NCBI GenBank assembly: GCA_045589455.1
Contig: JAZNPC010000066.1
Span: 127,227 to 191,226, forward strand
Direction of reading: 5' to 3'
Length of the DNA: 64,000 nucleotides
Source of the DNA: Kiritimatiellia bacterium
Lineage (GTDB): Bacteria > Verrucomicrobiota > Kiritimatiellia > RFP12 > UBA3636
The translations under genes were made by a program, and so were the position numbers. Positions 21,253 to 60,325 of the stretch are shown piece after piece; position 1 is the stretch's first letter, and each line of letters opens with the position of its first letter. The notes under the pieces were generated by a model. It did no database searches. It was not told the DNA's origin and saw nothing but the letters and a program-made list of their open reading frames with translations.

Positions 21253-21293
21253 CTATTTTAGAAAAATGTAAAAAAGTTAAAAATCTAAAATAG
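21253..21293 (+). repeat. 41-bp repeat, copy 3, immediately 3' of the ATPase stop codon.
   Basis: Exact copy of 19893..19933. Confidence 0.8.
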
Positions 21294-34423: not shown

Positions 34424-34460
34424 ATTTTGATGCACCAAGATGGTTGTGCGCAAATAGTAT

Positions 34461-34813
34461 GGAGAAGCGACTTCTAGTCGCTTTGCGTCTCTGCGTCCCT
34501 TCGGCGTCACGTGCATCATGCTCGCTCTGCGCTTCTTGTTGATTGTTTTTTCCCGCTCCTTGTCTCAAAAGCCTTGGTGGGTCGTACACATTAGCGCTTG
34601 GCAGTTGCCTTATTGCTTCGCCAGATTTAGCAATAATTAAGGCAACAACAAGCGGTAATGTGCGCGTCAGCGCCCCATCACCACACCCATCACACCAGCC
34701 CAGCGCCCTCCGCGTCCTTTGCGTCTCTGCGTCCCTTCGGCGTCACGTTCACCATGCTGTTGATTGTTGGCTGTTGTATCGTTTTCCCGCTCCTCGTCTT
34801 AAAAGCCTTGTTG
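34461..34813. repeat. GC-rich intergenic repeat block: two copies of a ~90-nt unit (ctttgcgtctctgcgtcccttcggcgtcacgt...gttgattgtt...ttcccgctcct...aaaagccttg) plus the tggagaagcgacttctagtcgctttgcgt module.
   Basis: Copy 1 is ~34481-34570 and copy 2 is ~34717-34813. The tggagaagcgacttctagtcgctttgcgt module recurs exactly at 53636-53664. Confidence 0.7.
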
Positions 34814-34837
34814 TATATTCTAAAGCGAGGTCGTTGG

Positions 34838-37476: not shown

Positions 37477-37602
37477 ACTATAAATTAAAACGAGAGAGGA
37501 TAATCGCTTCTCTCGTTTTAATTTTAGGTAATAGTTTCGGTAAAATTATAATTTGCCTGATTTATATCACGAGAGCCCTGCGTATCCCTCTGTGCCTCCC
37601 AA

Positions 37603-37690
37603 ACCACCGTCCTGTCCACCGTCCTGTCCACCGTAGTTTTAACGCAGGTGGAAGTTTTAACCTAGGAGGAAGTTTTAACGTAGGAGGTTG
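37603..37690. repeat. Short tandem repeats (ccaccgtcctgt x2; ttttaac[gc][ct]aggtggaag-like 18-nt unit x3).
   Basis: Direct inspection of the region just 3' of the mrp-like gene. Confidence 0.6.
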
Positions 37691-37745
37691 CGTCCCTTCT
37701 TCGTGCGCATAGTCATCACGCACGCTGGCAGCTACCACAGTAGCA

Positions 37746-38600: not shown

Positions 38601-38630
38601 TTTATAATTTCCTTCGTATATATTTGTGTT

Positions 38631-41956: not shown

Positions 41957-41972
41957 AAAAAATCCTTTTGTG

Positions 41973-42467: not shown

Positions 42468-42470
42468 TCT

Positions 42471-43844
42471 CTATGTGTTTAATCCGTATTTCTTAATTAA
42501 ACGCTGGAGATATGTTCTTTCAATATCTGCTTCGCGGGCTGATTTAGAAACATTACCATTGTTGCGTGCTAAAAGCTCTTTGATATATTGGCGTTCAAAA
42601 TCGTCGATTAGGCGATTCTTCTCATCCTTAAATGGCTTGGTGGTGTCAACATTATTTGAAACAGAATTTTCGTCGTCGTTTGAACCGTTGTTTGATTGCT
42701 TTAATAAAGTGCCACCTTGTTGGCATTGAAGGATATCAACAGGCTTTTGAATGTGGTAATAAGCGCGATCAATAAGGTTGCGGAATTCACGAATATTACC
42801 TGGCCAATCGTAACGCATCAATGCATTCATTGCATTGTCAAAGTCTTGAATTTCATCACGTGCCTTAGCATTATGCAAGCGCTTCATAAAGGTCTCAGCG
42901 AGAAGAGGGATGTCCTCTTTGTGTTCTCTAAGAGGAGGTAGCTCTATATTTACAACAGATAGGCGATAGTATAAATCTTCACGGAAATTGCCTTCGCTAA
43001 TTTCCTTTTTGATATTTCTATTTGTTGCACAAATTATTCTTACATCAATTTTGCGAACCTCATTAGAGCCAACACGTTTGATTTCACGTTTTTCTAGTAC
43101 ACGCAATAGCTTTGGCTGAAGCTCTTGAGGAAGCTCTCCAATTTCGTCAAGAAATACCGTGCCACCATCAGCGCTTTCAAAGGCACCAGGGCGGTCGCTT
43201 GTTGCGCCAGTAAATGCTCCCTTAATGTGGCCAAATAATTCACTCTCCACGATATCACGAGAAATTGATGTGCAGTCAATAACAACAAATGGTTTCTCAG
43301 AACGCTTGCTATGTTTGTGAATTTCCTCTGCAAGAATTTCCTTACCTGTGCCTGTTTCACCAGTAAGCATAATTGTTGCATCAGTTGGTGCATAGCTTTC
43401 TGCTAAATAGAAAATGCGACGCATTGGGTCACTAGCACCAATAGCATTACCAAAGTGATCGTTTTGGCTTAATGGAATATCTGCAAATTCTAGAGAAGGA
43501 GAAAATAGTAGGCGAGTATTGCCTAGGCGAAGCTCTGAGCCTGGGGTGAGATATGCATGCATGATGCGTAGCCCACAAAGGAATGAGCCATTTGTGCTAT
43601 TAGTATCTTCAATAGAAAAGGTGTGACCATCAGAGTTGATGATGCAGTGCTTGCGTGAAACTGCTGTGTCTTTTAGCTGCAAATCACAGCTGTCACTAGA
43701 GCCAATTGAAAAAGGAGTGTTTTCAATAATAATTTCTTTTCCTTGCTGTGGACCAGAAAGGATTAGTATTGATGCTTTTTTCTTAATGAGAGGACGCTCT
43801 TCATTTTTTGCTGGTACAACAAAGGTTTGATGTGCTTCTTTCAT
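42471..43844 (-). CDS. Sigma-54-dependent transcriptional activator with an N-terminal FHA domain.
   Basis: FHA motifs ([21 protein letters not shown]...NGSF), the AAA+ sigma-54-interaction domain ([21 protein letters not shown]) and a C-terminal Fis-type HTH. ATG at 43844; the ORF-track start at 43868 is a TTG. Confidence 0.88.
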
Positions 43845-43885
43845 AAGATATCCATTGATGAAATTCAAATTTGCGCAATCAAAAA

Positions 43886-45052
43886 TTAGGCATTAACAAA
43901 AGGTGAAATTTTGCGTAGCTTATCTACGATTCCAGGCATTACTTCTATAACCTGATTGATATCATCCTCTGTGTTGTAGCGGCTTAGGCTAAAACGTAGG
44001 GATCCATGAACTGCGGTGAAAGGAACACCCATTGCACGAATAACATGTGATGGCTCAAGAGAACCAGATGAGCATGCAGAACCAGATGAAGCACAAATTC
44101 CTGCATCACTTAGGTGATAAAGAAGTGCTTCTCCTTCGATAAATTCAAAGCTGATATTAAGTGTATTTGGAAGGCGCTTTGTTAGAGAGCCATTGAGGCG
44201 TGCATCTGGAAGCTTTAGTAGCTCCTCTTGAAGCTTATCGCGCAAACGAGCAATACGTTCAATTTCATCTGAGGCAAGATCTGCCTTTGCGAGCTCAGCT
44301 GCTTTACCTAGACCAACAATGTAAGGAACATTTTCTGTGCCTGCGCGGCGGCCATTCTCTTGGTGTCCTCCAAGTAGGAAAGGATTAATATGTGTACCCT
44401 TACGTACATATAGCGCGCCAATGCCCTTAGGTGCATGTAGCTTGTGGCCAGAAAGTGAAAGCATATCAGCAGGAATCTCTGCCATATTTACTTCAGAGAG
44501 CTTACCCATCGCTTGGACAGCATCTGTGTGGAAATAAGCTCCTGCTGCCTTTGCAAGCTCAGCACACTCCTTGATTGGGAAGATAACGCCAGTTTCATTG
44601 TTTGCCCACATCATGGTAACAAGCTTTTTGCCAGGAGCAGATAGTGCTGCCTTATACTCGTCCATATCAAGTGTGCCATCGCCATGCACGCCAATCTCAA
44701 AAACCTTGTAGCCCATTTCCTTTAGCTTGCGGCAAGGCTGAAGTACAGCAGGGTGCTCAACGCGAGTGGTAATGATTGTTCCGCCAGGGCCAATTGAATT
44801 TGCTGCGCCGAAAATTGCTGTGTTGTCAGATTCGCTACCGCAGCTTGTGAAAATAATTTCTGATGGGTCTGCGTGTACAAGGTCAGCTAGCTTCTCACGT
44901 GCTGCATCAACCTTCTTTTGTACAACGCCACCAAAGGCATGCATACTAGAAGGATTGCCATAATACTCCTTAAAGAATGGTAGCATTTCCTCTAGCACCT
45001 CAGGTGCCACCTGAGTTGTTGCATTGTTGTCTAAATAAGCAAGTCTGCTCAT
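43886..45052 (-). CDS. nifS: Cysteine desulfurase (NifS/IscS family).
   Basis: YLDNNATT, the PLP-binding SLSGHKLHAPKG and the active-site SSGSACSS. Confidence 0.9.
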   Translation of the reverse strand: MSRLAYLDNNATTQVAPEVLEEMLPFFKEYYGNPSSMHAFGGVVQKKVDAAREKLADLVHADPSEIIFTSCGSESDNTAIFGAANSIGPGGTIITTRVEHPAVLQPCRKLKEMGYKVFEIGVHGDGTLDMDEYKAALSAPGKKLVTMMWANNETGVIFPIKECAELAKAAGAYFHTDAVQAMGKLSEVNMAEIPADMLSLSGHKLHAPKGIGALYVRKGTHINPFLLGGHQENGRRAGTENVPYIVGLGKAAELAKADLASDEIERIARLRDKLQEELLKLPDARLNGSLTKRLPNTLNISFEFIEGEALLYHLSDAGICASSGSACSSGSLEPSHVIRAMGVPFTAVHGSLRFSLSRYNTEDDINQVIEVMPGIVDKLRKISPFVNA

Positions 45053-45054
45053 TT

Positions 45055-45903
45055 TTATGCCTCGCCTTCCTCTACAACAGTAATTTCAGGAGTTACAAAT
45101 TCCTTTAGCTTTGCTTCAACAAGAAGCTGCTTTGTAATGTGAGCAGAACGGCAGCCTGCGCACATGCCACGGAATGCAATTACTACTTCATTGCCACGAA
45201 CATCGACTAGCTCAATATCACCACCATCGCGCTGTAATAGTGGGCGAACTTCTGTATCGATTGTTTGCTCAACAAGCTTAATCTTTTGTAGCTGAGTCAT
45301 AGCGCGTGGCTTTGCTTCTTCCTTTGGCTCTGGAGCAGTGTGAGTAACAGAGTTTAGAACCTCTTGAATGTCTGCCTTACATTTGCCACATGCGCCACCA
45401 GCTTTGCAGTAGTTTGTGATTTGCTCTACTGTGGTTAGGTGATTCTCTGTTGCTAGGCGCACGATTTCAGATTTATGAATATCAAAGCATTGGCAGATTA
45501 CAGGGTCCTCACCAACAGAGCGCATAGAGGTTTCACCAGTCTTGTAATTGTGAATTGCTGCCTCAAGAGCTTCACGACCCATAACGGAGCAGTGCATCTT
45601 TTCTTCAGGAAGTCCACCAAGAAATTCTGCGATGTCTTGGTTTGTTACATTCTGTGCTTCCTCAAGAGTCATGCCCTTAATCATTTCTGTTAGAGCAGAT
45701 GAGGACGCAATTGCAGATGCGCAGCCAAAGGTTTGGAACTTAACATCGGCGATTCTTCCATTTTCGTCGAGCTTAAACATAAGAGTAAGTGCGTCGCCGC
45801 AAGCGAGTGCACCAACCTGGCCAATGCCATCTGGGTTTTCGATTTTTCCTACATTGCGTGGGTTATGAAAATGATCTAAAACTTTATCTGTATAATTCCA
45901 CAT
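45055..45903 (-). CDS. nifU: NifU-type Fe-S cluster assembly scaffold (full three-domain NifU).
   Basis: N-terminal IscU-like domain (GALACGD...FGCASA), a central CxxC ferredoxin-like domain (GGACGKC) and a C-terminal Nfu domain (CAGCRSA). ATG at 45903 is preceded by GAGG; the longer ORF starts with TTG. Confidence 0.85.
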   Translation of the reverse strand: MWNYTDKVLDHFHNPRNVGKIENPDGIGQVGALACGDALTLMFKLDENGRIADVKFQTFGCASAIASSSALTEMIKGMTLEEAQNVTNQDIAEFLGGLPEEKMHCSVMGREALEAAIHNYKTGETSMRSVGEDPVICQCFDIHKSEIVRLATENHLTTVEQITNYCKAGGACGKCKADIQEVLNSVTHTAPEPKEEAKPRAMTQLQKIKLVEQTIDTEVRPLLQRDGGDIELVDVRGNEVVIAFRGMCAGCRSAHITKQLLVEAKLKEFVTPEITVVEEGEA

Positions 45904-45999
45904 AATTAGCCTCATAAAAAAGCTTAAAAACAATTCGTTTACTTAAGTTATAATTATAACATAATTATACGGAGGAAAGCAAATAACAAAATGCGCAAG

Positions 46000-46680
46000 A
46001 AAAGTGCACATTTCAAGAACACGGACACACGGATGGGGTTTTTGGGGGTGCTTGTGTGATGGCTAGGCGTGCGAGGATTGGCGTGCGGGGCACGCGAGTG
46101 CGCTCTCGCGCAGGAACAGGATTGGCAGGATTATGCAGGATGGTCATGATTGCTTGGGTGTGTGCGTAGCGCACGACACTAGCGCTTGACGTTGGACATG
46201 GTCTTGCTCTCGTTGTCGCAAGGCCAACTTACAAGCGCTAGTGTGGGGGCAACCCATGTGCTTGTGTGGTGTTTCTTTTGACAGGATTAACTGGATTTGT
46301 GCGGATGCTGGGCTGGTGTGCTATAGGATTCAAGACACTAGCGCTTGTTGTTGCCTTAATTATTGCAAAATCTATGAAGCAATAAGGCACCATCCAAGCG
46401 CCAGTGTTTTGGATGCACCAAGCTTGGTTGTGCGCTGCGCCGCGTGCGGCGCAGTTTGAGCGTAGCGTATGTGCAAAACTCTCTCGCACCAGAGCGGGCA
46501 CTGAGCACTGCGAGACACAAAATGCTCTTGCATTTTTGGCTCGCGCCAGACAAAACGATGGAGGAGCCCTGTCACTATTGTTCTCGGCACCTCCATCAAC
46601 CGAAAGGAGTGGCGCGCGGCTTACCACACTGCCAATTGTGGCAAAACTCTTAAGACTGCTATTAATGAACTAGCATCGTA
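46000..46680. repeat. GC-rich non-coding repeat block of the 'CACGGAT / GGCTAGGCGTGCGAGGAT / GTGTGGGGGCAACCCATGTGCTTGTGTG' family.
   Basis: It shares a 26-nt exact match and several other modules with 52128..52440. It is GC-rich in an AT-rich genome. All ORFs in it are short, overlapping and of low complexity. Confidence 0.7.
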
Positions 46681-46929
46681 GGAATAATGCTAGGAGGATT
46701 TTATAGGAGAGTTAATGGGTTCATCCCGCATTATCTTTCAACAATTTTTAAAAAAAACAATTGCTAACTGTTTGCTCTTGTTTTGCCTCTCTTATTGGGT
46801 TCTTGTATAAAAAAATAGAAAAAAATGACAAATTTCTAAGATTAAATCTTCAAAAATTAAAAAAAACATTATATAATTATTGATAAATAAAGTGTTATTC
46901 TATGTTTTGTTATAAAATTGGGGTCCAAT

Positions 46930-49053
46930 ATGACTTCTGAAATTAAAAAATTTGTAAAAATGCTTATTGCTGAAGCTAATGAGCGAGAAGAAAAGCTCAC
47001 CCTTAAAGCTTGGGGTAAAGAGCGTACATTTGTTGCTTTTGATTTGTTTGATGATACTTTTATTTTTGAGGAAGGAATTTGGGATAATCTTGAAAATAAA
47101 GATTCTGTAATTCTTGTACCAAAATCAGCATTTTCACCTCCAAATCCAGAAGGGAAAAAGCGCCGTACCTTTGGTAATATCATGACAATTAGCTCTGGAA
47201 ACCATGCTGTTACGTCTATTCCATTACTTTCTGGCCAATTTTGGGATATTCCTGGAGTGCCAGAGGAGCAACGCTCAGATACGCTTGTAAAACGTCTTGT
47301 ATGTGCAAATGTTGTAGGAAATACAATTGAAATATCTCAGCGTGATGTTGCCACACCTGATGTTGTAGAAATGGATGATTGGTTGCAAGCACTTGGTTGC
47401 CCTATGCGTAGTGTTGTTTTAATTGACCGAATTGATTCAACACTTCAATACTACAACAAGCGAGGACAAGAATGGCGCATCAAACCGCTTGCGTGGACAT
47501 TTTCTGAGATGAATGCTGCTATACGCTCTTCAATTAGCCATATGCATTCTTGCATTAAATATTATCACAATGTAAAAGGTGTTCATTTTTTAACATATAA
47601 AAATTTCTGCACATGGGGTGAGCAAATAGAGGAAAATTACTCTGAATTTTTAAGTGGTTTGACAGAGCTTGCTGGAACAAGTGAATTAACCCAAGTGCCT
47701 AATTTGCTATTAAGCAAATATCGTACTCATCACGAGGTTGAGCTATTTGGTCTTCCTGATGGTGTGGCAGAGCGTATAATTATTCCTGAGCTTCTTGAGC
47801 TATACAAAGAGGTTAATGAGGAAAAATATCAGCCTCGTGATGTACGAGAGCGCTTCAATGCAATTGAAAGTACATTTAGAGCATCTTTGTTAGAGCCAGG
47901 TTTGTTGGAAGAAGATAGTCCGGATTTTATACAAAATCTTTATCGTAATATTACTGGGCAGATTTATTTTGACGAGACATATGGCTTAGTATCTAGTGCT
48001 TTTGATGACATGCGTACTGCACTTCCTGGTGCAACCTATATGCTTGGTAATCGCTTTATTCATGATGGTGCAGATGCTCGTACAGTTGCAATACTTGACG
48101 TTTTAGAGCGTGAAATTAGTCATGGTGATAGAATTGAACATGTAAATATTTACGAGATTCGCTCAAACAGTGAGAAAATTCACCTCGGTGAAGGTAAGTC
48201 CCGTGAAATCGTGTTCAAGACAATGTGGAACCCAAAGGATACACGTATTATTGAAAAGCGTTTGGCACACAGCTCAACTGGTTATGGTGCATATACACTT
48301 GCTCGTGTTTCTGCATTTCGTAGCCTTGGTATTTCATATGGTCGCCATCGTTTGATTGCCCGTAATGATGGTGCAGCTGGTGATATTCACTACTTTACAC
48401 GTGCACGTTATCCTGGAATACCTTTTAACAAGATTCCAAAAATGCTTTTCTGTAATCGTGATTTAAATACAGGTAAGTATGATTTATCAAAGGAATCTGC
48501 AGATATTGTTCGCGCATTGATTCGACTTCTTGGCGGATCTGCCGCAGAGGCAATGATTCTTAAGAAATATCGTAAAGGACAGGAAAATCACTATTGCGAT
48601 AGCAAGGAAATTATCGAATTTGGCTATGACGTACGCTACGGAAAAGAGATGCCAATTGGGCTACATCTTTGCTCAATCCGCGGAACAATGGGTTGGGAGG
48701 ATACTAGCCTGACTGAAGATAATCTTCTTAAAATGTTTGACTTTTTTATGAGTGAATTTGTTAAAACTGTAAAAAAATATGCAGAAGATCATCCTGTGCT
48801 TTCTCGTTATGATATAGCAGATGCTTTCTTCGAGGGATTTTCTGCAAAGACTCGCGAGGTGTATTGGAATTACATGAATAGGCGTGATCAATTCGATAAC
48901 TATTCTCCACGAGTTTATGGCGATTATCGTTTTACCGAAAAATGGTCATTTGTGCTTTGGAGCCTTCAAGAGCAGCGCAAGCGTCTAGATTATCTTTATG
49001 ATTTATTCAATGAGAAATTGGCTCGTGAATATCCAGAAGAGCTAGAAGGCTAA
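46930..49053 (+). CDS. Hypothetical protein (~707 aa), no recognisable domain.
   Basis: Long, clean ORF with normal amino-acid composition. ATG at 46930; the track start at 46918 is a TTG. Confidence 0.6.
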   Translation: MTSEIKKFVKMLIAEANEREEKLTLKAWGKERTFVAFDLFDDTFIFEEGIWDNLENKDSVILVPKSAFSPPNPEGKKRRTFGNIMTISSGNHAVTSIPLLSGQFWDIPGVPEEQRSDTLVKRLVCANVVGNTIEISQRDVATPDVVEMDDWLQALGCPMRSVVLIDRIDSTLQYYNKRGQEWRIKPLAWTFSEMNAAIRSSISHMHSCIKYYHNVKGVHFLTYKNFCTWGEQIEENYSEFLSGLTELAGTSELTQVPNLLLSKYRTHHEVELFGLPDGVAERIIIPELLELYKEVNEEKYQPRDVRERFNAIESTFRASLLEPGLLEEDSPDFIQNLYRNITGQIYFDETYGLVSSAFDDMRTALPGATYMLGNRFIHDGADARTVAILDVLEREISHGDRIEHVNIYEIRSNSEKIHLGEGKSREIVFKTMWNPKDTRIIEKRLAHSSTGYGAYTLARVSAFRSLGISYGRHRLIARNDGAAGDIHYFTRARYPGIPFNKIPKMLFCNRDLNTGKYDLSKESADIVRALIRLLGGSAAEAMILKKYRKGQENHYCDSKEIIEFGYDVRYGKEMPIGLHLCSIRGTMGWEDTSLTEDNLLKMFDFFMSEFVKTVKKYAEDHPVLSRYDIADAFFEGFSAKTREVYWNYMNRRDQFDNYSPRVYGDYRFTEKWSFVLWSLQEQRKRLDYLYDLFNEKLAREYPEELEG

Positions 49054-49090
49054 ACAAAATTGTTTGTTGTTATATAGGCGAGGAATTGTT

Positions 49091-50665
49091 ATGAAAGCAT
49101 TACACACAACAACAATATATGAACTTGATAGAGTGACATCCGCTTGGAATCGAAGTGGTGTAACACCTGATAACTTGGCATTGATGAATGATGCTGTTGT
49201 TGGTATTTCTGATTTCATAATAAATCAAATTTCTGCAAAAGATAAATTTCGACACATTATTTGCTGCATAGGTGCTGGGAATAATGGCTTTGATGCTTTG
49301 TGGAGCGGCTGGATATTAGAGCAATCAGGATATACAGTAGATTATTTTGCTATTGCAGAAGAGGAGAAATACTCTTCACAAATGCAAGGATTTATGGGAT
49401 TTCTTGATTCAAAAGGAATCTTTGTCCATTATGCAGACAAGGAGGGGAAGTGCTGGGAAGAACGCCGCCATATGTCTTTCCCCAAAAATCCAATTATTTT
49501 AGATGGTATTCTTGGCATTGGCTTTGATCCAAGCCGTAGCCTTTCCACAGGCACAGCAAAAGCAATTGATTGGATTAATTCGTGGCAGGGTCATGCTCAA
49601 ATTGTAGCGATAGATATTCCTTCTGGTTTACCAGCTAATGTGGCAGGGTCAGATTATAAAGAATTTGTGCAAAAGCATGATGCAAAGATTGTTCATGCAT
49701 CAGCAACTCTTACTATGGGTTGCCCAAAGCTTGTTATGCAAGAGCCTTCTTCTGCTGAGTTTTGTGGCAGTGTGTATGTTATCGATTTAGGTTATCAGCC
49801 GCCAGCTCCATCTTCTCCAATTGATTTTGTGACAGAGGCTGCTGTCCAACCATTTTCTATGATGCAACAACCATGGAATGCACATAAGGGTAGCCTTGGC
49901 CATGTTGCAGTAATTGCTGGCAGTGAAAAATATTCAGGAGCAGCGGCATTGGCTTCTCTTGGGGCATTGCGAGGTGGGGCAGGGCTATGCACCTGCTATA
50001 CATTGCCATGTTGTACTAACCGTGTTGGTGCTGTGGCTCCAGAGCTAATCGTACAATCCGTTACTCAAGAACAAGCAGCTGAATGGAAGCCAAATTTTAT
50101 CGAAGCATTGCTTCCATCTCTTGTTGGTAAGACAATTGTTTGTGGTCCTGGTATGGGTAATACACCGGCTGTGGCAGAGTGTGTGAAGCTGCTTCTTCAA
50201 GCACGCTGCAAGGGGCTTATATTTGATGCAGATGCACTTAATGCCATTGCTTCAAATCCATCTATTTTGCGTGAAGCATCTGTTCCTGTAATAATTACAC
50301 CACATCCTGGTGAGGCTGCTCGCTTGCTCAACTGTAGTGTAGCGGAGGTTGAAGCAGACAGACAGACGGCTGTTAGAAAGCTACGAGAGCTTACTGGTGC
50401 TATAGTAATCCTAAAGGGCGCTCGTACATTGATTTGTGGCAATGAATTACATATGCTAATCAATGGTAATCAAGCTATGGCTACGGGTGGAGGAATGGGG
50501 GATGTTCTTGCGGGACTTTGTGCTGCATATTTTGCTCGTTCTAATGGTGATGCAGAAGGTGCTGCTTGTGCTGCAACGTGGGCTCATGCACACGCTGGTG
50601 ATTTAATGCATTGGTTGAGTCCACATGCACCTGTCCGTGCTAGCGAATTAGCCAATTTAATCTAA
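49091..50665 (+). CDS. nnr: Bifunctional NAD(P)H-hydrate repair enzyme Nnr (NAD(P)HX epimerase / ADP-dependent dehydratase).
   Basis: N-terminal YjeF_N domain (CCIGAGNNGFDA) and a C-terminal carbohydrate-kinase-like domain (HVAVIAGSEKYSGAAALAS...GGMGDVLAG). ATG at 49091 after AGGCGAGGAA. Confidence 0.85.
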   Translation: MKALHTTTIYELDRVTSAWNRSGVTPDNLALMNDAVVGISDFIINQISAKDKFRHIICCIGAGNNGFDALWSGWILEQSGYTVDYFAIAEEEKYSSQMQGFMGFLDSKGIFVHYADKEGKCWEERRHMSFPKNPIILDGILGIGFDPSRSLSTGTAKAIDWINSWQGHAQIVAIDIPSGLPANVAGSDYKEFVQKHDAKIVHASATLTMGCPKLVMQEPSSAEFCGSVYVIDLGYQPPAPSSPIDFVTEAAVQPFSMMQQPWNAHKGSLGHVAVIAGSEKYSGAAALASLGALRGGAGLCTCYTLPCCTNRVGAVAPELIVQSVTQEQAAEWKPNFIEALLPSLVGKTIVCGPGMGNTPAVAECVKLLLQARCKGLIFDADALNAIASNPSILREASVPVIITPHPGEAARLLNCSVAEVEADRQTAVRKLRELTGAIVILKGARTLICGNELHMLINGNQAMATGGGMGDVLAGLCAAYFARSNGDAEGAACAATWAHAHAGDLMHWLSPHAPVRASELANLI

Positions 50666-50678
50666 AGATAAGGTTTTT

Positions 50679-52127
50679 ATGAAAGAAATTAAACTAAATG
50701 AATTTGCAAAGCTGGAATGCTTTGTAGACGAGAGTTCTCAATCCCAAGCTCCTGCACCAGCACTATTGATTCTTCCTGGTGGCGGCTATGGTTGCATCTG
50801 TTACGACACAGAGGGTGGCCCAATGGTAGACCGCTTTACTAAGCTAGGGCTACGCTGCTTTGTTTTGCATTATCGTGTAGGTGAGAATCAAACCTATCCT
50901 GATGCTTTGCGTGATGGAGTGGAGGCAATTCAACTTATCCGTAAAAATGCAGCTGAGTGGGGTGTTATCCCTGAAAATCTTGCTGTAGTTGGTTTTTCTG
51001 CTGGCGGACATCTTGCTGCAGCATTGGGTACTCTTTGCACAAAGCTCCCTCGTGAGCTTCTAACGGATGATGCTTCAACGCCATATATTCCTAATGCAAT
51101 GCTACTTTCATTTGCTGTTCTTTCTGGCTCAGAAATTGGTCATGTTGGCTCTATGAAATCATTCTTCCACACAGAGGAGCTAACAGAAGAGCAAAAAGAG
51201 CTTTTCTCACTAGAGAAGCAAATTACGGACAAGACTCCACCTGCATTTCTTTGGGCAACAGTAGAGGATCAGGTTGTGCCATTTGAAAATTCTTCACGCT
51301 TCCATCTTGCAATGGTTAAAGCAAAGCGTACTGCTGAGCTTCACGTTTACCCAGTTGGCGTTCATGGCATGCAATTTGGCTATGGACGTAATGACATTGT
51401 GCGTTGGCCAGAGCAAGCCGTTACCTTCTTAAAGGATACATGTGGCTTCAAGTTCCCATCAGAAGCACCAAAAAAACGCATTGTGCTTTCATTTGATGAT
51501 GCTGTAGTAAATCATTGTACATTCGTTGCTCCTGTTCTTAAAAAATACGGCTTTAATGCAACCTTCTTCATTAGTGGTTTTGATAAGAAATGGTATGAGG
51601 AGCATAATGCAGAAAATCTCATGACTCCGGAGCAGATTCGTTCACTTCACGAGCAGGGCTTTGAAATCGGCAACCACACTGCCACACATAATATGGGAAC
51701 AAAAGAGGAGTGTGAAAAAGAATTGGATGCAATGACAGAGTATTTGACAAAGGATTGCGGTGTTCCTGTACCAATATCTTTTGCATATCCTGGTGGTCCA
51801 TATTCTGATGAGATGGCAGCAGTTCTAAAGGAGCGTGGCTATAAATATGCTCGCACCTGTGATGAACGCTTCTATCAGCCAGCAACTGATGATCCTTTAA
51901 AGGTCCCTGCATTTAATATTTGCTATCAAACATACTTCGGTTATTTTTCAAGAATAAATAAAAATTTGCCTTCATTAAATTTTGATGAGAATGTTCCTGT
52001 TTTTGTATTCCACGGAATACCAGATGTAGAGCATCCATGGGTAAATATGGATCCATATCATTTTGAGCATTTTATTGCTTTCCTAGCAGGAAATGGCTAT
52101 CAAGGCATTGCTTTTAAGGATTTGTAA
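50679..52127 (+). CDS. Fusion protein: alpha/beta-hydrolase esterase domain plus polysaccharide deacetylase (NodB/CE4-like) domain.
   Basis: The N-terminal half has the GxSxG motif (VGFSAGGH), the oxyanion HGGG-like LPGGGY and D/H residues. The C-terminal half has LSFDDAVVNHCTFVAPVLKKYGFNATFF...H motifs typical of CE4. Confidence 0.8.
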   Translation: MKEIKLNEFAKLECFVDESSQSQAPAPALLILPGGGYGCICYDTEGGPMVDRFTKLGLRCFVLHYRVGENQTYPDALRDGVEAIQLIRKNAAEWGVIPENLAVVGFSAGGHLAAALGTLCTKLPRELLTDDASTPYIPNAMLLSFAVLSGSEIGHVGSMKSFFHTEELTEEQKELFSLEKQITDKTPPAFLWATVEDQVVPFENSSRFHLAMVKAKRTAELHVYPVGVHGMQFGYGRNDIVRWPEQAVTFLKDTCGFKFPSEAPKKRIVLSFDDAVVNHCTFVAPVLKKYGFNATFFISGFDKKWYEEHNAENLMTPEQIRSLHEQGFEIGNHTATHNMGTKEECEKELDAMTEYLTKDCGVPVPISFAYPGGPYSDEMAAVLKERGYKYARTCDERFYQPATDDPLKVPAFNICYQTYFGYFSRINKNLPSLNFDENVPVFVFHGIPDVEHPWVNMDPYHFEHFIAFLAGNGYQGIAFKDL

Positions 52128-52440
52128 ACACGGATGAGCACGGATGGGTGGTTTTCAAGAACACGGATGGACACGGATAGTCACGGATGGGGGCTAGGGT
52201 TGCTTGTGTGGTGGTGTAAAGTGTGGGTTCAAGAACACGGATGGACGCGGATGGACACGGATAGTCACGGATGGGGGCTAGGGTTGCTTGTGTGGGGGCA
52301 ACCCATGTGCTTGTGTGTTGGCTAGGCGTGCGAGGATCAAGAACACGGATGGACACGGATAGTCACGGATGGGTGATGGGGATGCTTGGGTTTATGGGTA
52401 GTTTAATGTCGTGGCATGGTAGGCTCAGCCCTATCATGAA
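52128..52440. repeat. GC-rich repeat block, tandem (c/a)cacggat(a/g)g units plus modules shared with 46000..46680.
   Basis: cacggatgg is repeated more than 12 times. It carries the same gtgtgggggcaacccatgtgcttgtgtg and ggctaggcgtgcgaggat modules as the block 6 kb upstream, in the same orientation. Confidence 0.75.
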
Positions 52441-52478
52441 ATTTTGAATGGTTTTGTAAAAGAGGATGTAAGAATAAG

Positions 52479-53501: not shown

Positions 53502-53504
53502 AAA

Positions 53505-54420
53505 ATCCCTCATGCAGAGTGGATGCACATACACGGATGTGAGATTTGTCGCTAGCGCTCAAGCCTTCGGCGAAACACGGAGCACACGTAGTGTGATTTT
53601 CCTGAGAACGGAGGCACGGAGAGGATGCTAGTGGTATGGAGAAGCGACTTCTAGTCGCTTTGCGTGCGGTAGCACGCTTTAAAAGTGCGAAAAAGGGACG
53701 CAGAGACGCAAAGGACGCAGAGGACGCAGAGGACGCAGAGGACGCAGGGCTTGCGTGATGGCTTGTATGGTGGTATCGATGATAACACTACCGCTTGTCG
53801 GTGCCTTGTTTTGCTCCTGTTGTTGCAAAGGCAACTTCCAAGCGCTAGTGTGTTCGCCCACAAGAATGCAAAGACGCGGAGCTTATGCACGTGATGGCTA
53901 AAAGTGCGAAGAAGAGACGTTAGACGCGAGACGGTTAAACGACGTTAGACGTGAAAATGGAGAAAAACCAATTAACTCTACCTAAATTCTTCATTTTTCA
54001 TTCTTCATTCTTCATTTATTATAATGCGTTGCCTCCGCATCTTAATAGGCTTCTAGGCGAGGACACTAGTGGATGAGATTTGCCAAATTGCTTCGATAGA
54101 TAAAGCAATAGCCAAGGCAAAGTTCATTCCGCTAGTGTATTTGTTGCGTCACGGCTCTGCGACCTCTGCGACCTCCGCGTCTCTGCGTCCCTTTGGCGTC
54201 ACGTGCATCACGGTACACGGATTTGACGCTCCCGCTGTAGCCTTCGGCGAAACGCGGAGAATAAAGAGAACGGAGACACGGAGGGGTTCTGGGGGTTATT
54301 GTTGATGGTTGCTAGCATAGTTCTCCCTTGTCCTCCGTGAAAACCACACTATGTGTGTCCGTGTTAGGCGAAAGCAATATGTGCGAAAAAGGGACGCAGA
54401 AACGCTAAGAACGCTGAGTG
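53505..54420. repeat. GC-rich modular repeat cluster upstream of the giant BspA gene.
   Basis: Module C (gccttcggcgaaacacggagcacacgtagtgtgattttcctgagaacggag) recurs at ~59738-59800. A gacgcagag tandem run (53690-53750) is the reverse complement of the ctctgcgtc module at 34481-34500. The aattaactctacctaaattcttcatt...tattataatgc module recurs at ~60156-60230. A ~170-nt module (54231-54400) recurs at 59938-60110. Confidence 0.75.
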
Positions 54421-54953
54421 AGCATGGCTTGCGGTAAGCGAAATCCGGATAAATACCGATTGGCTTTCCGGGGTCTCATAAAGAGTGCGTCATGTGCGTG
54501 GCGTAAGTGTCTTTATCCATGCAAATTGCGTTATACAATTTTACCATATTATTAGGGTTTAAATCATTGATTTAGAGCGAAAAAAATCATATAATATGGG
54601 CATATCTTTTAAATAGAATGATTTGTTTTTCTTTTTTAGAGATATATTACATAGGTATGCAATGAAAGTTACATACTGTTGAACTAATCGCTTTTGAATG
54701 TAAAAGATTCAAAAGGAATAGTGTTAGTACGCAAGCTTGCGTATTTAGCTTTGATTGAAAATCGCCAATTTCCCATCTAACTAAGCTGAATATGTAAGGT
54801 GCGCTACGTGGTATTTTCCCGCGTGGCGTGTCTTCTTTTCATGTTTAGTTAGAGGCGTTTGGCGATGCCCCAATCAGAATATGAAAATTATGGCACGCCA
54901 CGTCTTTTTTGTGCAAGACGCTTCGTGTCCAATAAATGCACAAAAGGTATTAT

Positions 54954-57900
54954 ATGAAAAAGTTATTGTTGGGTTTTATAGTTGCAGTTACTGCGATTCC
55001 ATTGTTTTCAGACATTGCCATTATTGATGGTATGATGTGTCACTATCAAGTAAATGATGGCCAAGCTAGTATTTATAATGGTGGTTGGAGTTCTGCAATA
55101 CCATCTACAACTAAAGGGTCAATAACAATCCCATCAACCATTGGTGGTTATCCAGTAACTAGCATTGGAGATAGGGCGTTTTCTGGTTGCAGTGGTCTTA
55201 CGAGCATAACGATACCCGATAGCGTGACGAGCATCGGAAGTTGGGCGTTTGAGGATTGCAGTGGTCTTACGAGCATAACGATACCCGATAGCGTGACGAG
55301 CATTAGGGTTGGTGCGTTTTCTGGTTGCAATAACATTAAATCTGTGACTGTGGGTCAGTATATATGTAGCAAAGGATTAGATGTATTTCCATCCTATCAA
55401 TCAATAATAAATGTTGTTATTTCGGATGGTGTAACGAGCATCGAAAGTTGGGCGTATGAGGATTGCAGTGGTCTTACGAGCATAACGATACCCGACAGCG
55501 TGACGAGCATTGGATCTGGTGCGTTTTCGGGTTGCAGTGATTTACTATATGATACCACAACAATACAAGGTGTGAAGCTTGTTGATGATTGGGTTGTTGG
55601 TTATACGGATTCTTGTCCATCAGTTCTTGATTTAACAGATATAAGAGGAATTGGAGATCGCGCGTTTTCAGGTTGCATAGGACTTACAAGTATTACAATT
55701 CCAGATAGCGTGACTAGCATTGGCAATTCTGCGTTTGTGAATTGCAGTGGTCTTACGAGCATAACGATACCAGATAGCGTAACGAGCATTGGCTCTTCTG
55801 CGTTCCAAAATTGCAGTGGTCTCACCAGCATAACGATTCCAGATAGCGTAACTAGCATTGGCTCTTCTGCGTTCCAAAATTGCAGTGGTCTCACGAGCAT
55901 AACGATACCAGATAGCGTGACGAATATTGGCTCTTCTGCGTTCCAAAATTGCAGTGGTCTCACAAGCATAACGATTCCAGATAGCGTAACTAGCATTGGC
56001 TATTCTGCGTTTTGTTATTGCGATGGTCTAACAAGCATAACAATACCGAATAGCGTGACGAGCATCGGAAGTTGGGCGTTTTCAGGTTGCATAGGACTTA
56101 CAAGTATTACAATTCCAGATAGCGTGACGAGCATTGGCAATTCTGCGTTTTCTTATTGCGATGGTCTAACAAGCATAACAATACCGAATAGTGTGACGAG
56201 CATTGGCTCTTCTGCGTTCCAAAATTGCAGTGGTCTCACAAGCATAACGATTCCAGATAGCGTGACGAGCATTGGAGATAATGCGTTTGATGGGTGCAGT
56301 GGTCTCACGAGCATAACGATTCCAGATAGCGTGACGAGCATTGGATGGGATGCGTTTGTAGATTGCAGTGGCCTTACCAATTTTATAGTAGATTCCAATA
56401 ATCCCAACTATAAGTCAGTTAATAGTTTGCTACTTTCCAAAGATGGTAAATCTCTTATTGCGGGTATAAATGGTAATGTCGTAATTCCTAATAGCGTGAC
56501 TAGTATTGGCAATAGTGCGTTTGAGGATTGCAGTGGTCTCACGAGCATAACGATACCCGATAGCGTGACGAGCATTGGAGATAATGCGTTTGATGGGTGC
56601 AGTGGTCTCACGAGCATAACAATTCCCGATGGCGTGACTAGTATTGGCAATAGTGCGTTTGAGGATTGCAGTGGCCTTACGAGCGTCACGATACCTAATG
56701 GCGTGACGAGCATTGGCGATTATGCGTTTGAAGGTTGCAATGATTTTATATATGATACCACAACAATACAAGGTGTGGAGCTTGTTGATGGTTGGGTTGT
56801 TGGTTATACGGATTCTTGTCCATCAGTTCTTGATTTAACAGGTGTAAGAGGAATTGCCGATACTGCGTTTTATGATTGCAGTGGTCTAACAAGCATAACT
56901 ATACCCAACAGCGTGACGAGCATTGGGTATAGTGTGTTTACTGGTTGCAGTGGCCTTACGAGCATAACAATACCTGATAGCGTGACGAGCATTGGCGATT
57001 ATGCGTTTGAAGGTTGCAGTGGTCTTACGAGCATAACGATACCCGATAGCGTGACGAGCATTGGAGATGGTGCGTTTGGTGGTTGCAGTGGTCTTACGAG
57101 CATAACAATCCCAGATAGCGTGACGAGCATTGGAGATGATGCGTTTGGTGGTTGCAGTGGTCTAACAAGCATAACAATCCCAGATAGCGTGACGAGCATT
57201 GGAGATGATGCGTTTAGGGGTTGCAGTGGTCTAACGAGCGTGACGATCCCCGATAGCGTTACGAGCATTGGATGGGATGCGTTTTGGGGGTGTGATAATA
57301 TCAAGACTGTAACTGTAGGTCAGTATATATGCAGTAATGGTATATTTTCGTCGCATCAATCAATCACTAATGTTGTGATTTTAGATGGCGTAACTAGCAT
57401 TGGAGATGAGGCGTTTAGGGGTTGCAGTGGTCTAACAAGCATAACAATCCCAGATAGCGTGACGAGCATTGGGGATGAGGCGTTTGCTTGGTGCGATGGT
57501 CTTACGAGCGTGACGATCCCCGATAGTGTTACGAGCATTGGCAGATGGGCGTTTGAGTATTGCGATGGTCTTACGAGCTTGACGATAGGAAATAGCGTAA
57601 CAAGCATTGGAAGAGGTGCGTTTGAGTATTGCTATGGTCTTACAAGCATTACCATTCCTAATAGCATAACAAACATGTACATATATGAATTTGAGCATTG
57701 CGATAAAATCAAGAATTTAATAATAGGGCAATATATATGTACAAATGACATTTATCGTATGTTTCCTGAGTCATTTTCAATAATAGAAAATATTGAAATT
57801 TTAGATGGTGTAACGAGTATAGGTGATTGGACATTTCAAGGATGTTCTAGCATTACAAGTATAACAATTCCTGATAGCGTAACGAGCATTGGTAGAGCTC

Positions 57901-59591: not shown

Positions 59592-59612
59592 TAGGGGATA
59601 ACTTTGTGGTTA

Positions 59613-59644
59613 GGCGTGCAGACAAGAAATTGTTTGCACGCCTA
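59613..59644 (+). terminator. Hairpin 20 nt after the BspA stop (aggcgtgcagacaagaaattgtttgcacgcct), possible terminator.
   Basis: Perfect 9-bp stem with a weak T-tract (aattgttt). Confidence 0.4.
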
Positions 59645-59649
59645 ATTGT

Positions 59650-60300
59650 TTGCGGTGGAGAGAATTGCCCTCAGTGTTTCTGCGTCCCACCAGTATCATG
59701 GCACACAAATTTGTCGCTCTCGCTCTAGCCTTCGGCGAAACACGGAGCACACGTAGTGTGATTTTCCTGAGAACGGAGACACGGAGAGTATTCTTGGGTT
59801 ATTATTGCTTGCACTTTCCCTCCTTATCTCCGTACTCCGTGTTAAGCGAAAGCAATGAGTGTAATAATTAGCATAGTACTCCTTTGTCCTCCGTACTCCG
59901 TGTTAAGCGTAAGCAATAAGTGTAACGATTTAAACGCTTGCGCTGTGGCCTTCGGCGAAACACGGAGGTAAAAGAGAACGGAGACACGGAGGGGTTCTGC
60001 GGTTATTGTTGATGGTTGCTAGCATAATGCTACCTTGTCCTCCGTGAAAACCACACTATGTGTGTCCGTGTTAGGCGTAAGCAATGAGTGCGAAGAAGGG
60101 ATGCTGCGACGCGGAGGACGCAGCGGACGAGATTAGACGCGATAGCAAAAAACAATTAACTCTACCTAAATTCTTCATTCTTCACTCTTCATTCTTCATT
60201 TATTATAATGCATCGCCTCCGCGTCTCTGCGTCCCTTTGGCGTCACGTGCATCACGATCCGCGTCACGTGCATCACACTAGCAGATGGGTTGCAGAGCAC
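59650..60300. repeat. GC-rich modular repeat cluster downstream of the giant BspA gene, sharing modules in direct orientation with 53505..54420.
   Basis: The ~170-nt module at 59938-60110 is ~90% identical to 54231-54400. Module C, the aattaactctacc...tattataatgc module and the gcgtctctgcgtccctttggcgtcacgtgcatcac module are all shared with the upstream cluster. Confidence 0.75.
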
Positions 60301-60325
60301 TAGCAACAAATATCAACGAGGGGGA

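What the first reader, a model, noticed from the sequence alone, without database searches (positions are those of the whole stretch)
46000..52440. A second pair of GC-rich direct repeats ('CACGGAT' family) brackets a 3-gene block (unknown 707-aa protein, Nnr, esterase-CE4 fusion)
46000-46680 and 52128-52440 share the exact 26-mer gtgtgggggcaacccatgtgcttgtgtg. They also share ggctaggcgtgcgaggat and ttcaagaacacgga(c/t)..cacggatgg, all in the same orientation. The downstream block is dominated by more than 12 tandem (c/a)cacggat(a/g)g units.

The intervening 5.4 kb holds three co-oriented genes. The repeat blocks are ~60% GC against a ~40% background and produce only low-complexity overlapping ORFs, so they are non-coding elements.

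The 'CACGGAT' family and the 'GACGCAGAG' family (see 34461-34813 and 53690-53750) share some words, such as gcgctagtgtg.
Basis: seen in the sequence. Interest (0 to 1): 0.5.

Follow-up and report, generated by a model that had tools for sequence, protein, structure and literature searches.

The report
Dispersed intergenic repeat mosaics, not cassette
The two GC-rich blocks are real copies of short non-coding repeat modules that this Kiritimatiellae-type bacterium scatters between many genes; they sit where gene order and strains differ, but they do not make the three genes between them a mobile unit.

Summary
Blocks 45991-46841 and 52128-52478 share an exact 28-mer, an exact 18-mer and a TTCAAGAAC-ACGGAT lead, all in the same orientation and far beyond chance. 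The blocks are not one collinear direct repeat. They are mosaics of short modules: CACGGAT decamer arrays, a ~160-nt unit I call X, a ~75-nt hairpin I call H, and small GC hairpins. The same or sister modules recur at 34.4, 37.6, 53.5-54.9 and 59.6-60.3 kb.

Relatives settle the bracketing question.
- A 76%-identical relative has the same three genes with 28-nt and 1-nt junctions and no repeats.
- An 87-90% relative has block B at the same site, with one copy of X instead of three partial tandem copies. It lacks block A and has a different upstream gene.
- Block A fills a synteny breakpoint exactly, on both sides.
- 98%-identical strains carry three different repeat alleles at another such site, and their contigs end inside the repeats.

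So these are fast-turnover, REP/BIME- or MITE-like extragenic repeats, not cassette ends.

By-product: three-unit CACGGAT arrays, usually as 30-nt inverted arms of ~130-nt hairpin elements, occur in more than 120 genome loci, 72% of them from the PVC superphylum. No Rfam family or paper was found. The mobilising enzyme and the function remain unknown.

The parts
45991..46841 (.). Block A: an 851-nt lineage-specific mosaic of repeat modules that fills a synteny breakpoint between the NifU side and the 707-aa gene side.
   Evidence: Homology to the 82% relatives L128-L133 ends at 45990. Homology to the 87-90% relatives L121/L125 begins at 46842. No remnant of the relatives' neighbouring genes is present.
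46013..46172 (+). Element X, full-length copy. It consists of the lead TTCAAGAAC, two CACGGA(T) units, the G-rich tail ...TGCTTGTGTG, the 18-mer GGCTAGGCGTGCGAGGAT, two small GC hairpins, a CAGGATTGG 9-mer array (46117-46152), and ...GATTGCTTGGG.
   Evidence: 88.9% identical over 153 nt to L125 8670-8820, which in that relative lies at the block B position. Alignment A2. TRF array.
46176..46245 (+). Hairpin module H, copy 1 (ACACTAGCGCTTG ... CAAGCGCTAGTGT).
   Evidence: RNA fold -37.2 kcal/mol, z = -4.5. DNA fold z = -4.7. Five copies in the window share the fold.
46241..46268 (+). Exact 28-mer shared with block B. It overlaps the 3' stem of H1.
46335..46408 (+). Hairpin module H, copy 2. It is 92% complementary to the copy at 34623-34661.
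   Evidence: I1, I2; z = -7.3.
46849..46877 (+). Sigma-70-like promoter match (TTCAAA-17-TATAAT) for the 707-aa gene. It lies just inside the segment conserved with relatives.
   Evidence: The conserved segment starts at 46842. This is a consensus match only.
46930..49053 (+). 707-aa conserved protein of unknown function, possibly with a protein-kinase-like fold.
   Evidence: No Pfam, NCBIfam or PDB sequence hit. 543 homologues; every informative source name among them is Kiritimatiellae/Kiritimatiellia/Kiritimatiellaeota. AF2 model pLDDT 87, with weak Foldseek hits to kinases.
49064..50665 (+). Nnr (YjeF_N + carbohydrate-kinase domains). The likely ATG start is at 49091.
50679..52127 (+). Alpha/beta-hydrolase (BD-FAE) + CE4 polysaccharide deacetylase fusion.
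52128..52478 (+). Block B: an insertion between the esterase gene and the 340-aa gene. It holds a 2-unit array (52129-52147), then three tandem partial copies of X's 5' part (arms at 52152-52190, 52226-52274 and 52334-52372; start-to-start spacings 84 and 98 nt), then an AT-richer tail with an RBS for the next gene.
   Evidence: (D14-D17). L125 has one copy of X at this site. L126 has a 1-nt junction here. The arrays do not fold: ssDNA z = +2.6.
52290..52337 (+). 28-mer (52290-52317) followed, after 2 nt, by the 18-mer (52320-52337). In block A the two are about 160 nt apart and in the opposite order.
34457..34813 (.). Sister mosaic block: GACGCAGAG-family arms (reverse orientation), one H hairpin, and a 42-nt internal duplication.
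37590..37745 (.). Sister block just 3' of the ParA/Mrp gene: 18-mer and 12-mer arrays. The site has three different alleles among 98%-identical strains.
53502..54440 (.). Sister mosaic block C: CACGGAG arms, a GACGCAGAG array (53697-47) with its inverted partner at 54155-94, two H hairpins, and an ATTCTTC array.
   Evidence: Its start is conserved in L125. A 181-nt module recurs at another locus in L121.
59700..60290 (.). Sister mosaic block D. It shares 162-, 80- and 76-nt modules with block C in direct orientation, on either side of the 1551-aa LRR gene.

Best explanation
Blocks A and B are two of at least six clusters of short, non-coding, extragenic repeat modules in the 34-60 kb part of this window.

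**Source organism.** It is a ~40% GC member of the Kiritimatiellae (PVC superphylum).

**Module types.**
- Solo 'arms' made of 2-4 decamers, (N)CACGGATNG. Sister words are CACGGAG and GACGCAGAG.
- A ~160-nt composite unit, X.
- ~75-nt long hairpins, H.
- Small GC hairpins.

**Shown.**
- The modules are multi-copy and dispersed in this lineage and in its ~88% relative.
- They are absent from the corresponding sites of more distant relatives.
- They sit only between genes, often starting at the stop codon.
- They are inserted into formerly tight gene junctions (block B) or fill rearrangement junctions (block A).
- They are amplified in tandem: one copy of X in the relative, three partial copies here.
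- They differ between 98%-identical strains at another such site (3' of the ParA/Mrp gene, window 37745).

**Inferred.**
- The modules spread as non-autonomous elements.
- They are moved either by a trans-acting enzyme that recognises hairpin or array ends (REP/RAYT- or MITE-like) or by recombination between copies.
- They are then reshuffled by slippage, unequal crossing-over and gene conversion at micro-homologies such as TGCTTGTGTG. That process produced the identical 28-mer in both blocks.

**Consequence.** The direct-repeat arrangement around the three genes is a coincidence of repeat density. It is not the boundary of a mobile cassette. At most it offers 18-31-nt substrates for rare deletion or duplication of the block.
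For: **Dispersal.**
- In-window self-comparison of intergenic DNA finds the modules in five blocks; a sixth, at 37590-37745, carries private 18- and 12-mer arrays.
- A 181-nt module (window 54032-54212) is 90.6% identical to L121 171-351, which lies next to a different gene.
- X at window 46019-46169 matches L125 8670-8820, which sits at the block B site.

**Insertion and absence.**
- L126/L127 have GH94 | 28 nt | 707 | Nnr | esterase | 1 nt | 340-aa homologue.
- L125 has block B but not block A, and EpsH upstream.
- L128-L135 carry TP_0789-like | ~190 nt | NifU, and homology to the window stops at 45990.
- No module matches were found in those 19-kb loci.

**Turnover.**
- There are three alleles 3' of the ParA/Mrp gene in 95-99%-identical contigs (five of six at 98-99%).
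- All six contigs end within 100 nt of the gene, inside the repeats.

**Tandem amplification.** 48-nt and 37-nt stretches are 100% identical among the copies of block B.

**Structure.**
- H copies fold with z = -4.5 to -7.3, with some compensatory pairs.
- The CACGGAG arms pair with each other (z = -2.6).

**Non-coding.**

**Wider class.** The three-unit CACGGAT array is found in more than 120 genome loci. Its usual form is AAC-[CACGGATNNA]x3 ... loop of ~71 nt ... [ATCCGTGTNN]x3-GTT.
Against: - No transposase or other enzyme has been tied to the modules.
- The only HUH/Y1 (RAYT-like) gene in the window (10585-11655) has its own, different flanking hairpins. No homologue lies near 127 other loci.
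- No target-site duplication is visible at block B.
- The copy number in the whole source genome could not be measured.
- In this window the CACGGAT arms are solo, unstructured and all on one strand. They therefore do not themselves have the hairpin form on which the mobility analogy rests.
- Block A has no independent assembly supporting it.
Confidence: 0.72

Rival explanations
1. The two blocks are the ends of a mobile or recombinational cassette (a translocatable unit). Recombination between the direct repeats would excise the three genes as a circle and insert them elsewhere.
For: Same-orientation exact 28-mer and 18-mer on both sides. The upstream neighbour of the block differs between relatives.
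Against: - The downstream neighbour (the 340-aa gene) is the same in the window, L125 and L126, so the block has not moved relative to it.
- L126/L127 have the block with no repeats at all.
- The shared segments are only 18-31 nt long and are not collinear.
- No integrase or transposase lies in or next to the block.
- An identical style of 'bracketing' is seen around the LRR gene.
Confidence: 0.04
2. The modules are selected functional RNA or DNA elements rather than selfish repeats. Candidates are 3'-UTR or intercistronic stabiliser or processing hairpins, insulators, outward promoters, or small RNA genes. They would be kept because they tune expression of the flanking genes.
For: - Strongly folding hairpins with a few compensatory changes.
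- Arrays start exactly at stop codons or 10-25 nt from start codons, both in the window and in PVC loci.
- Block B separated a formerly translationally coupled gene pair, and its 3' tail carries an RBS.
- The arm word is the same in genomes of 33-68% GC.
Against: - Presence/absence and allele replacement occur among 98%-identical strains and close relatives.
- No Rfam family matches.
- The canonical element has a T-run before and an A-run after the hairpin, the reverse of an intrinsic terminator.
- Block B arrays are unstructured.
- The constancy of the word is partly an ascertainment effect of the search pattern.
Confidence: 0.14
3. The decamer arrays are protein-binding arrays. Three sites spaced one helical turn apart would lie on one face of the DNA. 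The binding protein could be a conserved PVC DNA-binding protein such as a nucleoid, partition or regulator protein, or a transposase with multiple end-binding sites as in IS21 or Tn7.
For: - A 10-nt period, with exactly three units in 163 of 178 arrays.
- An invariant AAC at the outer end.
- Strong PVC enrichment: 87 of 120 loci.
Against: - No candidate protein is linked by neighbourhood.
- Sister words with 9-nt periods exist.
- There are no experimental data.
Confidence: 0.08
4. The NifU | block A | 707-aa junction is an assembly chimera made by joining two loci through a shared repeat. On this view the 'bracketing' does not exist in the cell.
For: - Short-read assemblies of this species and its relatives break at these repeats.
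- Block A coincides with breakpoints on both sides.
- No independent contig spans block A.
Against: - Block A is 851 nt of mostly unique mosaic sequence, not a single shared repeat.
- Block B and the ParA-site allele of the window are each confirmed by independent assemblies (L125, L139).
- GC skew is uniformly positive across the junction.
Confidence: 0.08

Closest known systems
REP / BIME clusters of Enterobacteria and Pseudomonas, with their RAYT (TnpA-REP) transposases
   Same: - Extragenic and high-density.
- Hairpin-forming.
- Assembled into mosaics of several short motifs, with tandem amplification and strain-to-strain variation.
- A RAYT-like Y1/HUH gene is present in the same window.
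   Different: - Modules are 70-160 nt long or are decamer arrays, not 20-40-nt palindromes.
- No GTAG/CGTC tag.
- The RAYT-like gene is flanked by other hairpins, not by these modules.
- The arrays in blocks A and B are unstructured solo arms.
MITEs such as Neisseria Correia/NEMIS elements, pneumococcal RUP, and enterobacterial ERIC/IRU
   Same: - The canonical PVC form is about 130 nt long with ~30-nt terminal inverted repeats.
- It is intergenic and often abuts gene starts or stops.
- It is multi-copy and able to form long hairpins in transcripts.
   Different: - The terminal repeats are themselves three tandem decamers.
- No target-site duplication and no parent IS were found.
- The same arm word occurs across phyla, while loops are unrelated.
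- The window copies lack the second arm.
STRR (short tandemly repeated repetitive) heptamer arrays of heterocystous cyanobacteria
   Same: Short tandem units, several sister 'words' in one genome, intergenic location, unknown function.
   Different: - Units are 9-10 nt, not 7.
- There are typically only three units.
- Arrays are frequently paired as inverted arms.
- The phyla are different.
Composite transposon or IS-bounded translocatable unit
   Same: Direct repeats on both sides of a few genes.
   Different: The repeats are 18-31-nt shared words, not IS copies. There is no transposase and no evidence that the block moves.

Membership tests
REP/BIME-RAYT system | Repeat unit is a 20-40-nt imperfect palindrome | tested here: not met
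   H hairpins are 70-80 nt long. CACGGAT arrays do not fold (z = +2.6). X has only two small internal hairpins.
REP/BIME-RAYT system | Conserved unpaired GTAG or CGTC tetranucleotide at one end of the palindrome (Di Nocera et al. 2013, PMC3733652) | tested here: not met
   H stems begin ACACTAG.../...CTAGTGT. No GTAG or CGTC foot appears in any of the 5 copies.
REP/BIME-RAYT system | Extragenic and arranged in mosaic clusters with other short motifs, with tandem amplification | tested here: met
REP/BIME-RAYT system | A cognate RAYT gene flanked by the same repeats (REPtron) | tested here: not met
   ORF 10585-11655 matches Y1_Tnp (E = 3.9e-9) and NCBIfam REP_Tyr_transpos (50.5 bits, below the cutoff of 80). 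Its flanking hairpins are private to 10.3-11.9 kb. The rest of the genome was not available.
MITE (Correia-like) | Terminal inverted repeats bounding a 100-400-nt non-coding unit | tested here: inconclusive
   Met for the canonical PVC form: 93 of 178 arrays have an inverted partner within 400 nt downstream, against 12 upstream, and L036 folds with z = -10. Not met for the CACGGAT arms of blocks A and B, which have no partner arm in the window.
MITE (Correia-like) | Target-site duplication flanking the element | tested here: not met
   The filled site (window, L125) compared with the empty site (L126) at the esterase | 340-aa junction shows no duplication. In PVC loci the flanks are palindromic (TTK-AAC ... 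GTT-MAA), not direct.
MITE (Correia-like) | Ends match those of an autonomous IS in the same or a related genome | tested here: inconclusive
   No pair of arms enclosing a transposase-sized ORF was recognised in 120 loci. No plasmid or phage match. Whole genomes were not searched.
Composite transposon / mobile cassette | The bracketed genes occur at different loci together with the flanking repeats | tested here: not met
   The downstream neighbour is constant in the window, L125 and L126. Repeats are absent in L126/L127.
Described structured RNA families (Rfam 15) | Match to a covariance model at gathering score | tested here: not met
   The only hit in the window is tRNA-Phe. Nothing significant appears in E-value mode on the blocks. 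Nothing but one tRNA appears in 15 PVC loci carrying canonical elements.
CRISPR array | Regular repeats separated by unique spacers of similar length | tested here: not met
   Units are contiguous decamers, and clusters are separated by repeated G-rich tails. No cas genes were found among the ORFs scanned.

The most novel reading that the evidence does not exclude
The three-decamer arm AAC-[CACGGATNNA]x3, with sister words such as CACGGAG, GACGCAGAG, CACGAAT and CGCAGAT, may define a previously undescribed, PVC-centred superfamily of 'array-armed' hairpin elements. On this reading the ends are conserved across phyla because one conserved protein recognises three sites spaced a helical turn apart. 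That protein would be a transposase or a chromosomal DNA-binding factor. The Kiritimatiellae mosaics seen here would be its decayed, recombined products.
Probability: 0.3. Interest if true: 0.62.

Novelty: new variant of a known kind. Interest (0 to 1): 0.4.

Why it matters
- **For this genome.** The blocks explain why short-read assemblies of this gut or rumen-type Kiritimatiellae lineage fragment. They mark where its gene order and strains differ, including next to the variable BspA-type surface-protein genes.
- **For annotation.** The blocks should be recorded as repeats, not as the low-complexity ORFs that gene callers tend to emit.
- **More generally.** The arrays connect to a very widespread PVC element with an unusual end architecture: three decamers per arm. 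It is not in Rfam 15. I found no paper carrying its sequence in the open-access library (8 million papers). If one protein reads these ends, this is a tractable entry point to extragenic-repeat biology in phyla where almost nothing is known about it.

Tried and rejected
- **Exact-protein look-ups** for the esterase, the 340-aa protein, the 707-aa protein, NifU and NifS were all not on record. Only the ParA/Mrp protein was found.
- **Metagenome scans** for the 22-nt core of the 28-mer and for the H hairpin termini gave 0 hits. The lineage seems absent from that collection, so no census was obtained.
- **Plasmid and phage BLAST** of block A and of a canonical element gave no match.
- **Viral contigs** gave only 3 hits, so the element is not phage-borne.
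- **Rfam** gave nothing.
- **Literature.** No paper contains the array sequence. REP/RAYT surveys (PMC3733652, PMC6006769) describe other repeats.
- **RAYT link.** tblastn of the RAYT-like protein against 127 loci gave no hit, and its private hairpins are not in the blocks.
- **Arrays tied to gene starts?** My crude ORF calling shows that they abut starts and stops about equally, so I rejected this.
- **Intrinsic terminator reading.** Rejected, because the T-run is on the wrong side.
- **Remnants of the relatives' neighbouring genes** in block A: none found.
Full report
**1.

- GTGTGGGGGCAACCCATGTGCTTGTGTG is 28 nt long, not 26. It occurs exactly twice in 64 kb, at 46241 and 52290, on the same strand. 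None is expected by chance, even with 3 mismatches allowed.
- GGCTAGGCGTGCGAGGAT also occurs exactly twice, at 46061 and 52320.
- The lead TTCAAGAACACGGA occurs at 46012, 52154, 52228 and 52336.
- CACGGATGG with up to 1 mismatch gives 21 hits against 5.7 expected. Twelve of them lie in 52129-52372, all on the + strand, in four clusters of 2, 3, 4 and 3 units.
- GC content is 52.7% and 54.6%, against 39.6% for the window, rather than ~60%.
- ORFs in the blocks are short, overlapping and compositionally odd.

The shared pieces are not collinear. In block A the 18-mer comes about 160 nt before the 28-mer. In block B the 28-mer comes first, with 2 nt between them, and the two share the micro-homology TGCTTGTGTG.

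**2. What the blocks are made of.**

Self-comparison of all intergenic DNA shows GC-rich mosaics at 34424-34837, 45934-46917, 52128-52478, 53502-54935 and 59592-60325. A smaller one lies at 37590-37745. Intergenic regions in the first 34 kb are AT-rich and lack these modules.

The recurrent modules are:
- **(i) Short arrays of 9-10-nt units.** The words are CACGGAT, CACGGAG and GACGCAGAG.
- **(ii) A ~160-nt composite unit, X.** It runs: lead, CACGGAT units, G-rich tail, 18-mer, two small GC hairpins, CAGGATTGG array, GATTGCTTGGG (alignment A2).
- **(iii) A ~75-nt hairpin, H.** Its form is ACACTAGCGCTTG...CAAGCGCTAGTGT. There are five copies, each folding far better than shuffles (z = -4.5 to -7.3), with some compensatory inner-stem changes.
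- **(iv) Larger shared modules.** Pieces of 162, 80 and 76 nt are shared in direct orientation by the two blocks that flank the 1551-aa LRR gene.

Being 'bracketed' by same-orientation repeats is therefore common in this region.

The CACGGAG and GACGCAGAG arrays have inverted partners. The CACGGAT arrays of blocks A and B have none in the window, and as single strands they are less structured than shuffles (z = +2.6).

No Rfam family matches, at gathering score or in E-value mode.

**3. Organism and relatives.**

The 707-aa protein has no Pfam, NCBIfam or PDB sequence match. It has 543 homologues, and every informative source name among them is Kiritimatiellae, Kiritimatiellia or Kiritimatiellaeota. 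The NifU hits agree.

Contigs encoding close homologues gave four levels of comparison.

*(a) L126/L127, 76% nt identity.*
- The arrangement is GH94 | 28 nt | 707 | Nnr | esterase | 1 nt | homologue of the 340-aa gene.
- There are no repeats on either side.

*(b) L121/L125, 87-90% nt identity.*
- The arrangement is exosortase EpsH (opposite strand) | 350 nt | 707 | Nnr | esterase | 272 nt | 340-aa gene.
- Homology to the window starts at 46842, just upstream of a promoter-like site. Block A is therefore absent and the upstream neighbour differs.
- Block B is present at the same site but contains one array followed by a full X.
- That X is 88.9% identical to window 46019-46169, that is, to the X of block A.
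- The window's block B is thus three tandem partial copies of X's 5' part. Stretches of 48 and 37 nt are identical between copies, and the central part of X is missing.

*(c) L128-L135, 82% nt identity.*
- The arrangement is ...secretin, methyltransferase, TP_0789-like | ~190 nt | NifU-NifS-...-ParA.
- Homology to the window is exactly 37745-45990. It ends where block A begins.
- No module occurs in these 19-kb loci.

*(d) L139-L144, 95-99% nt identity (five of six at 98-99%; they encode the identical ParA/Mrp protein).* Just after the gene's stop, three different GC-rich alleles exist:
- the window's own allele (L139);
- a GACGCAGAG-family module (L142-L144);
- another GC palindrome (L140/L141).

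All six contigs end inside these repeats.

L121 also carries a 1.1-kb mosaic next to a pseudouridine synthase gene. It is built from modules of the window's blocks C and D, including 181 nt at 90.6% identity.

**4. Interpretation.**

These comparisons support the following points.
- The three genes plus the 340-aa gene are an old syntenic run.
- Block B is an insertion into a once tight, probably translationally coupled, junction. It was made before the window and L125 lineages split, and it was amplified afterwards.
- Block A fills a junction that is novel on both sides.
- The modules are multi-copy, dispersed and replaced at the strain level.

This is the behaviour of extragenic repeat families such as REP/BIME clusters or MITEs.

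The identical 28-mer is embedded in otherwise 89-97% similar material. I read it as the trace of recent exchange between copies. This is an inference.

The cassette reading fails for three reasons.
- The downstream neighbour never changes.
- Relatives have the genes without repeats.
- No recombinase lies nearby.

**5. Mechanism: what is and is not known.**

A Y1/HUH ORF at 10585-11655 matches Pfam Y1_Tnp (E = 3.9e-9). Its best NCBIfam match is 'REP-associated tyrosine transposase' (50.5 bits, below the cutoff of 80). It carries HVH and Y...NNP motifs.

It is the only candidate enzyme in the window for hairpin-repeat mobilisation. However, the hairpins around it (AATTTCCCCTAA, GCACGACTAAATGCACC, GC-rich arms at 11238-11284 / 11728-11780) are private to that locus. 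No homologue lies in 127 other loci. The link is therefore untested.

No target duplication is seen at block B.

I commit to the following model, with the mobility step inferred rather than shown:
- non-autonomous spread, by a trans-acting end-recognising enzyme or by recombination between copies;
- followed by slippage, unequal crossing-over and gene conversion.

**6. The wider class.**

- By record title, 87 of 120 loci are from the PVC superphylum: 69 Verrucomicrobiota, 10 Planctomycetota, 3 Kiritimatiellae, 3 Lentisphaeria, 1 Omnitrophica and 1 'PVC group'.
- The rest are scattered, and some are probably mis-binned.
- Only the arrays match the window.

The usual form is (T-rich)K-AAC-[CACGGATNNA]x3, a loop with a median of 71 nt, then [ATCCGTGTNN]x3-GTT-M(A-rich).
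- 163 of 178 arrays have exactly three units.
- 93 have an inverted partner within 400 nt downstream, against 12 upstream.
- One example folds as a 30-bp hairpin with z = -10.

These elements are intergenic and abut gene starts and stops about equally. Several can occur per 8 kb. Sister words occur in the same loci: CACGAAA, CACGAAT, CGCGAAG, CGCAGAT, CACAGAG and GACGCAG. The T-run precedes the hairpin and the A-run follows it, so they are not intrinsic terminators.

They are nearly absent from 2.9 million viral contigs (3 hits) and absent from plasmid records. They are not in Rfam. I found no paper containing the sequence. REP surveys of PVC genomes describe GTAG-tagged repeats instead.

One caveat applies. 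The constancy of the word is partly imposed by my search pattern.

The arms in blocks A and B differ from this form in three ways.
- They begin GAAC-ACGGAT, one C short of the canonical AAC-CACGGAT.
- They are followed by a G-rich tail.
- They have no partner arm.

I regard them as solo or decayed members embedded in a lineage-specific composite (X).

**7. Verdict.**

The finding is a true repeat observation. Its 'bracketing' interpretation is not supported.

The blocks are a new, lineage-specific variant of the known kind 'mosaic extragenic repeats'. They are linked to an apparently undescribed, PVC-wide array-armed hairpin element.

Interest is moderate. It is ordinary as genome furniture. 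It is worth a note because of the strain-level turnover next to surface-protein genes, and because of the unusual, widely conserved three-decamer ends, whose reader protein is unknown.

**8. Side result.**

An AlphaFold2 model of the 707-aa protein has pLDDT 87.2 and pTM 0.76. It gives only weak Foldseek-PDB matches, all to protein-kinase-like folds: Vps34, amicoumacin kinase and CotH, with E = 3e-4 to 1e-2 and TM no higher than 0.35. This hints at an atypical kinase domain and nothing more.

Noticed in passing
window 10585-11655 (with flanks 10300-11950): - ORF of 356 aa with an IS200/RAYT-like Y1 HUH domain (residues ~66-172), located next to tRNA-Phe (10108-10183).
- It is surrounded by private hairpins: GCACGACTAAATGCACC x3 and AATTTCCCCTAA x5.
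- There is also a ~50-nt GC-rich inverted pair (11238-11284 / 11728-11780). The first arm of that pair lies in-frame inside the ORF, so the C-terminal 120 aa may be a fusion.
   Followed up: partly
Genome-contig loci L001-L120 (e.g. L036 1189-1290, L005 4677-4830, L014): - A ~130-nt hairpin element centred on the PVC superphylum, with arms made of three CACGGATNNA decamers and an invariant outer AAC/GTT.
- 87 of 120 sampled loci are PVC.
- It is not in Rfam 15, and no paper with the sequence was found.
   Followed up: partly
window 37590-37745; L139-L144 3' ends: Among 95-99%-identical contigs of the same species (five of six at 98-99%), the DNA just after the ParA/Mrp gene stop has three unrelated GC-rich repeat alleles. 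Every contig ends inside the repeat.
   Followed up: yes
window 53502-54935 and 59592-60325: Two mosaic blocks flank the 1551-aa BspA-type LRR gene. They share 162-nt (91%), 80-nt (95%) and 76-nt (93%) modules in direct orientation, a stronger 'bracket' than the one in the finding.
   Followed up: partly
window 19892-19934, 19967-20009, 21252-21294: A 43-nt AT-rich near-palindrome (TCTATTTTAGAAAAATGTAAAAAAGTTAAAAATCTAAAATAGG) occurs on both sides of a DUF4143/AAA_14 ATPase gene (20017-21249). This is a different, AT-rich repeat family.
   Followed up: no
window 16282-19677, 21526-22791, 22852-24111, 36571-37476, 54936-59591: Five BspA-type leucine-rich-repeat genes with 69-nt coding repeats. 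The genes at 21526-22791 and 22852-24111 are tandem paralogues (77-94% nt identity over their aligned segments).
   Followed up: no
window 46930-49053: - The 707-aa protein belongs to a large family (543 homologues) with no Pfam/NCBIfam model; every informative source name among the homologues is Kiritimatiellae/Kiritimatiellia/Kiritimatiellaeota.
- A confident AF2 model (pLDDT 87) has only weak similarity to protein-kinase-like folds.
- Its neighbours vary between relatives (GH94, aldose epimerase, exosortase).
   Followed up: partly
window 53986-54016 and 60170-60200: ATTCTTC heptamer arrays (4.4 units) are followed by ATTTATTATAATGC. They lie inside a 76-nt module shared by blocks C and D. 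The TATAAT-like tail might be an outward promoter.
   Followed up: no
window 52400-52478 vs L126 11150-11170: The repeat insertion separated a gene pair that is only 1 nt apart in a more distant relative. In the window the 340-aa gene has a new upstream region with an AGAGGA ribosome-binding site that came with the inserted segment.
   Followed up: partly
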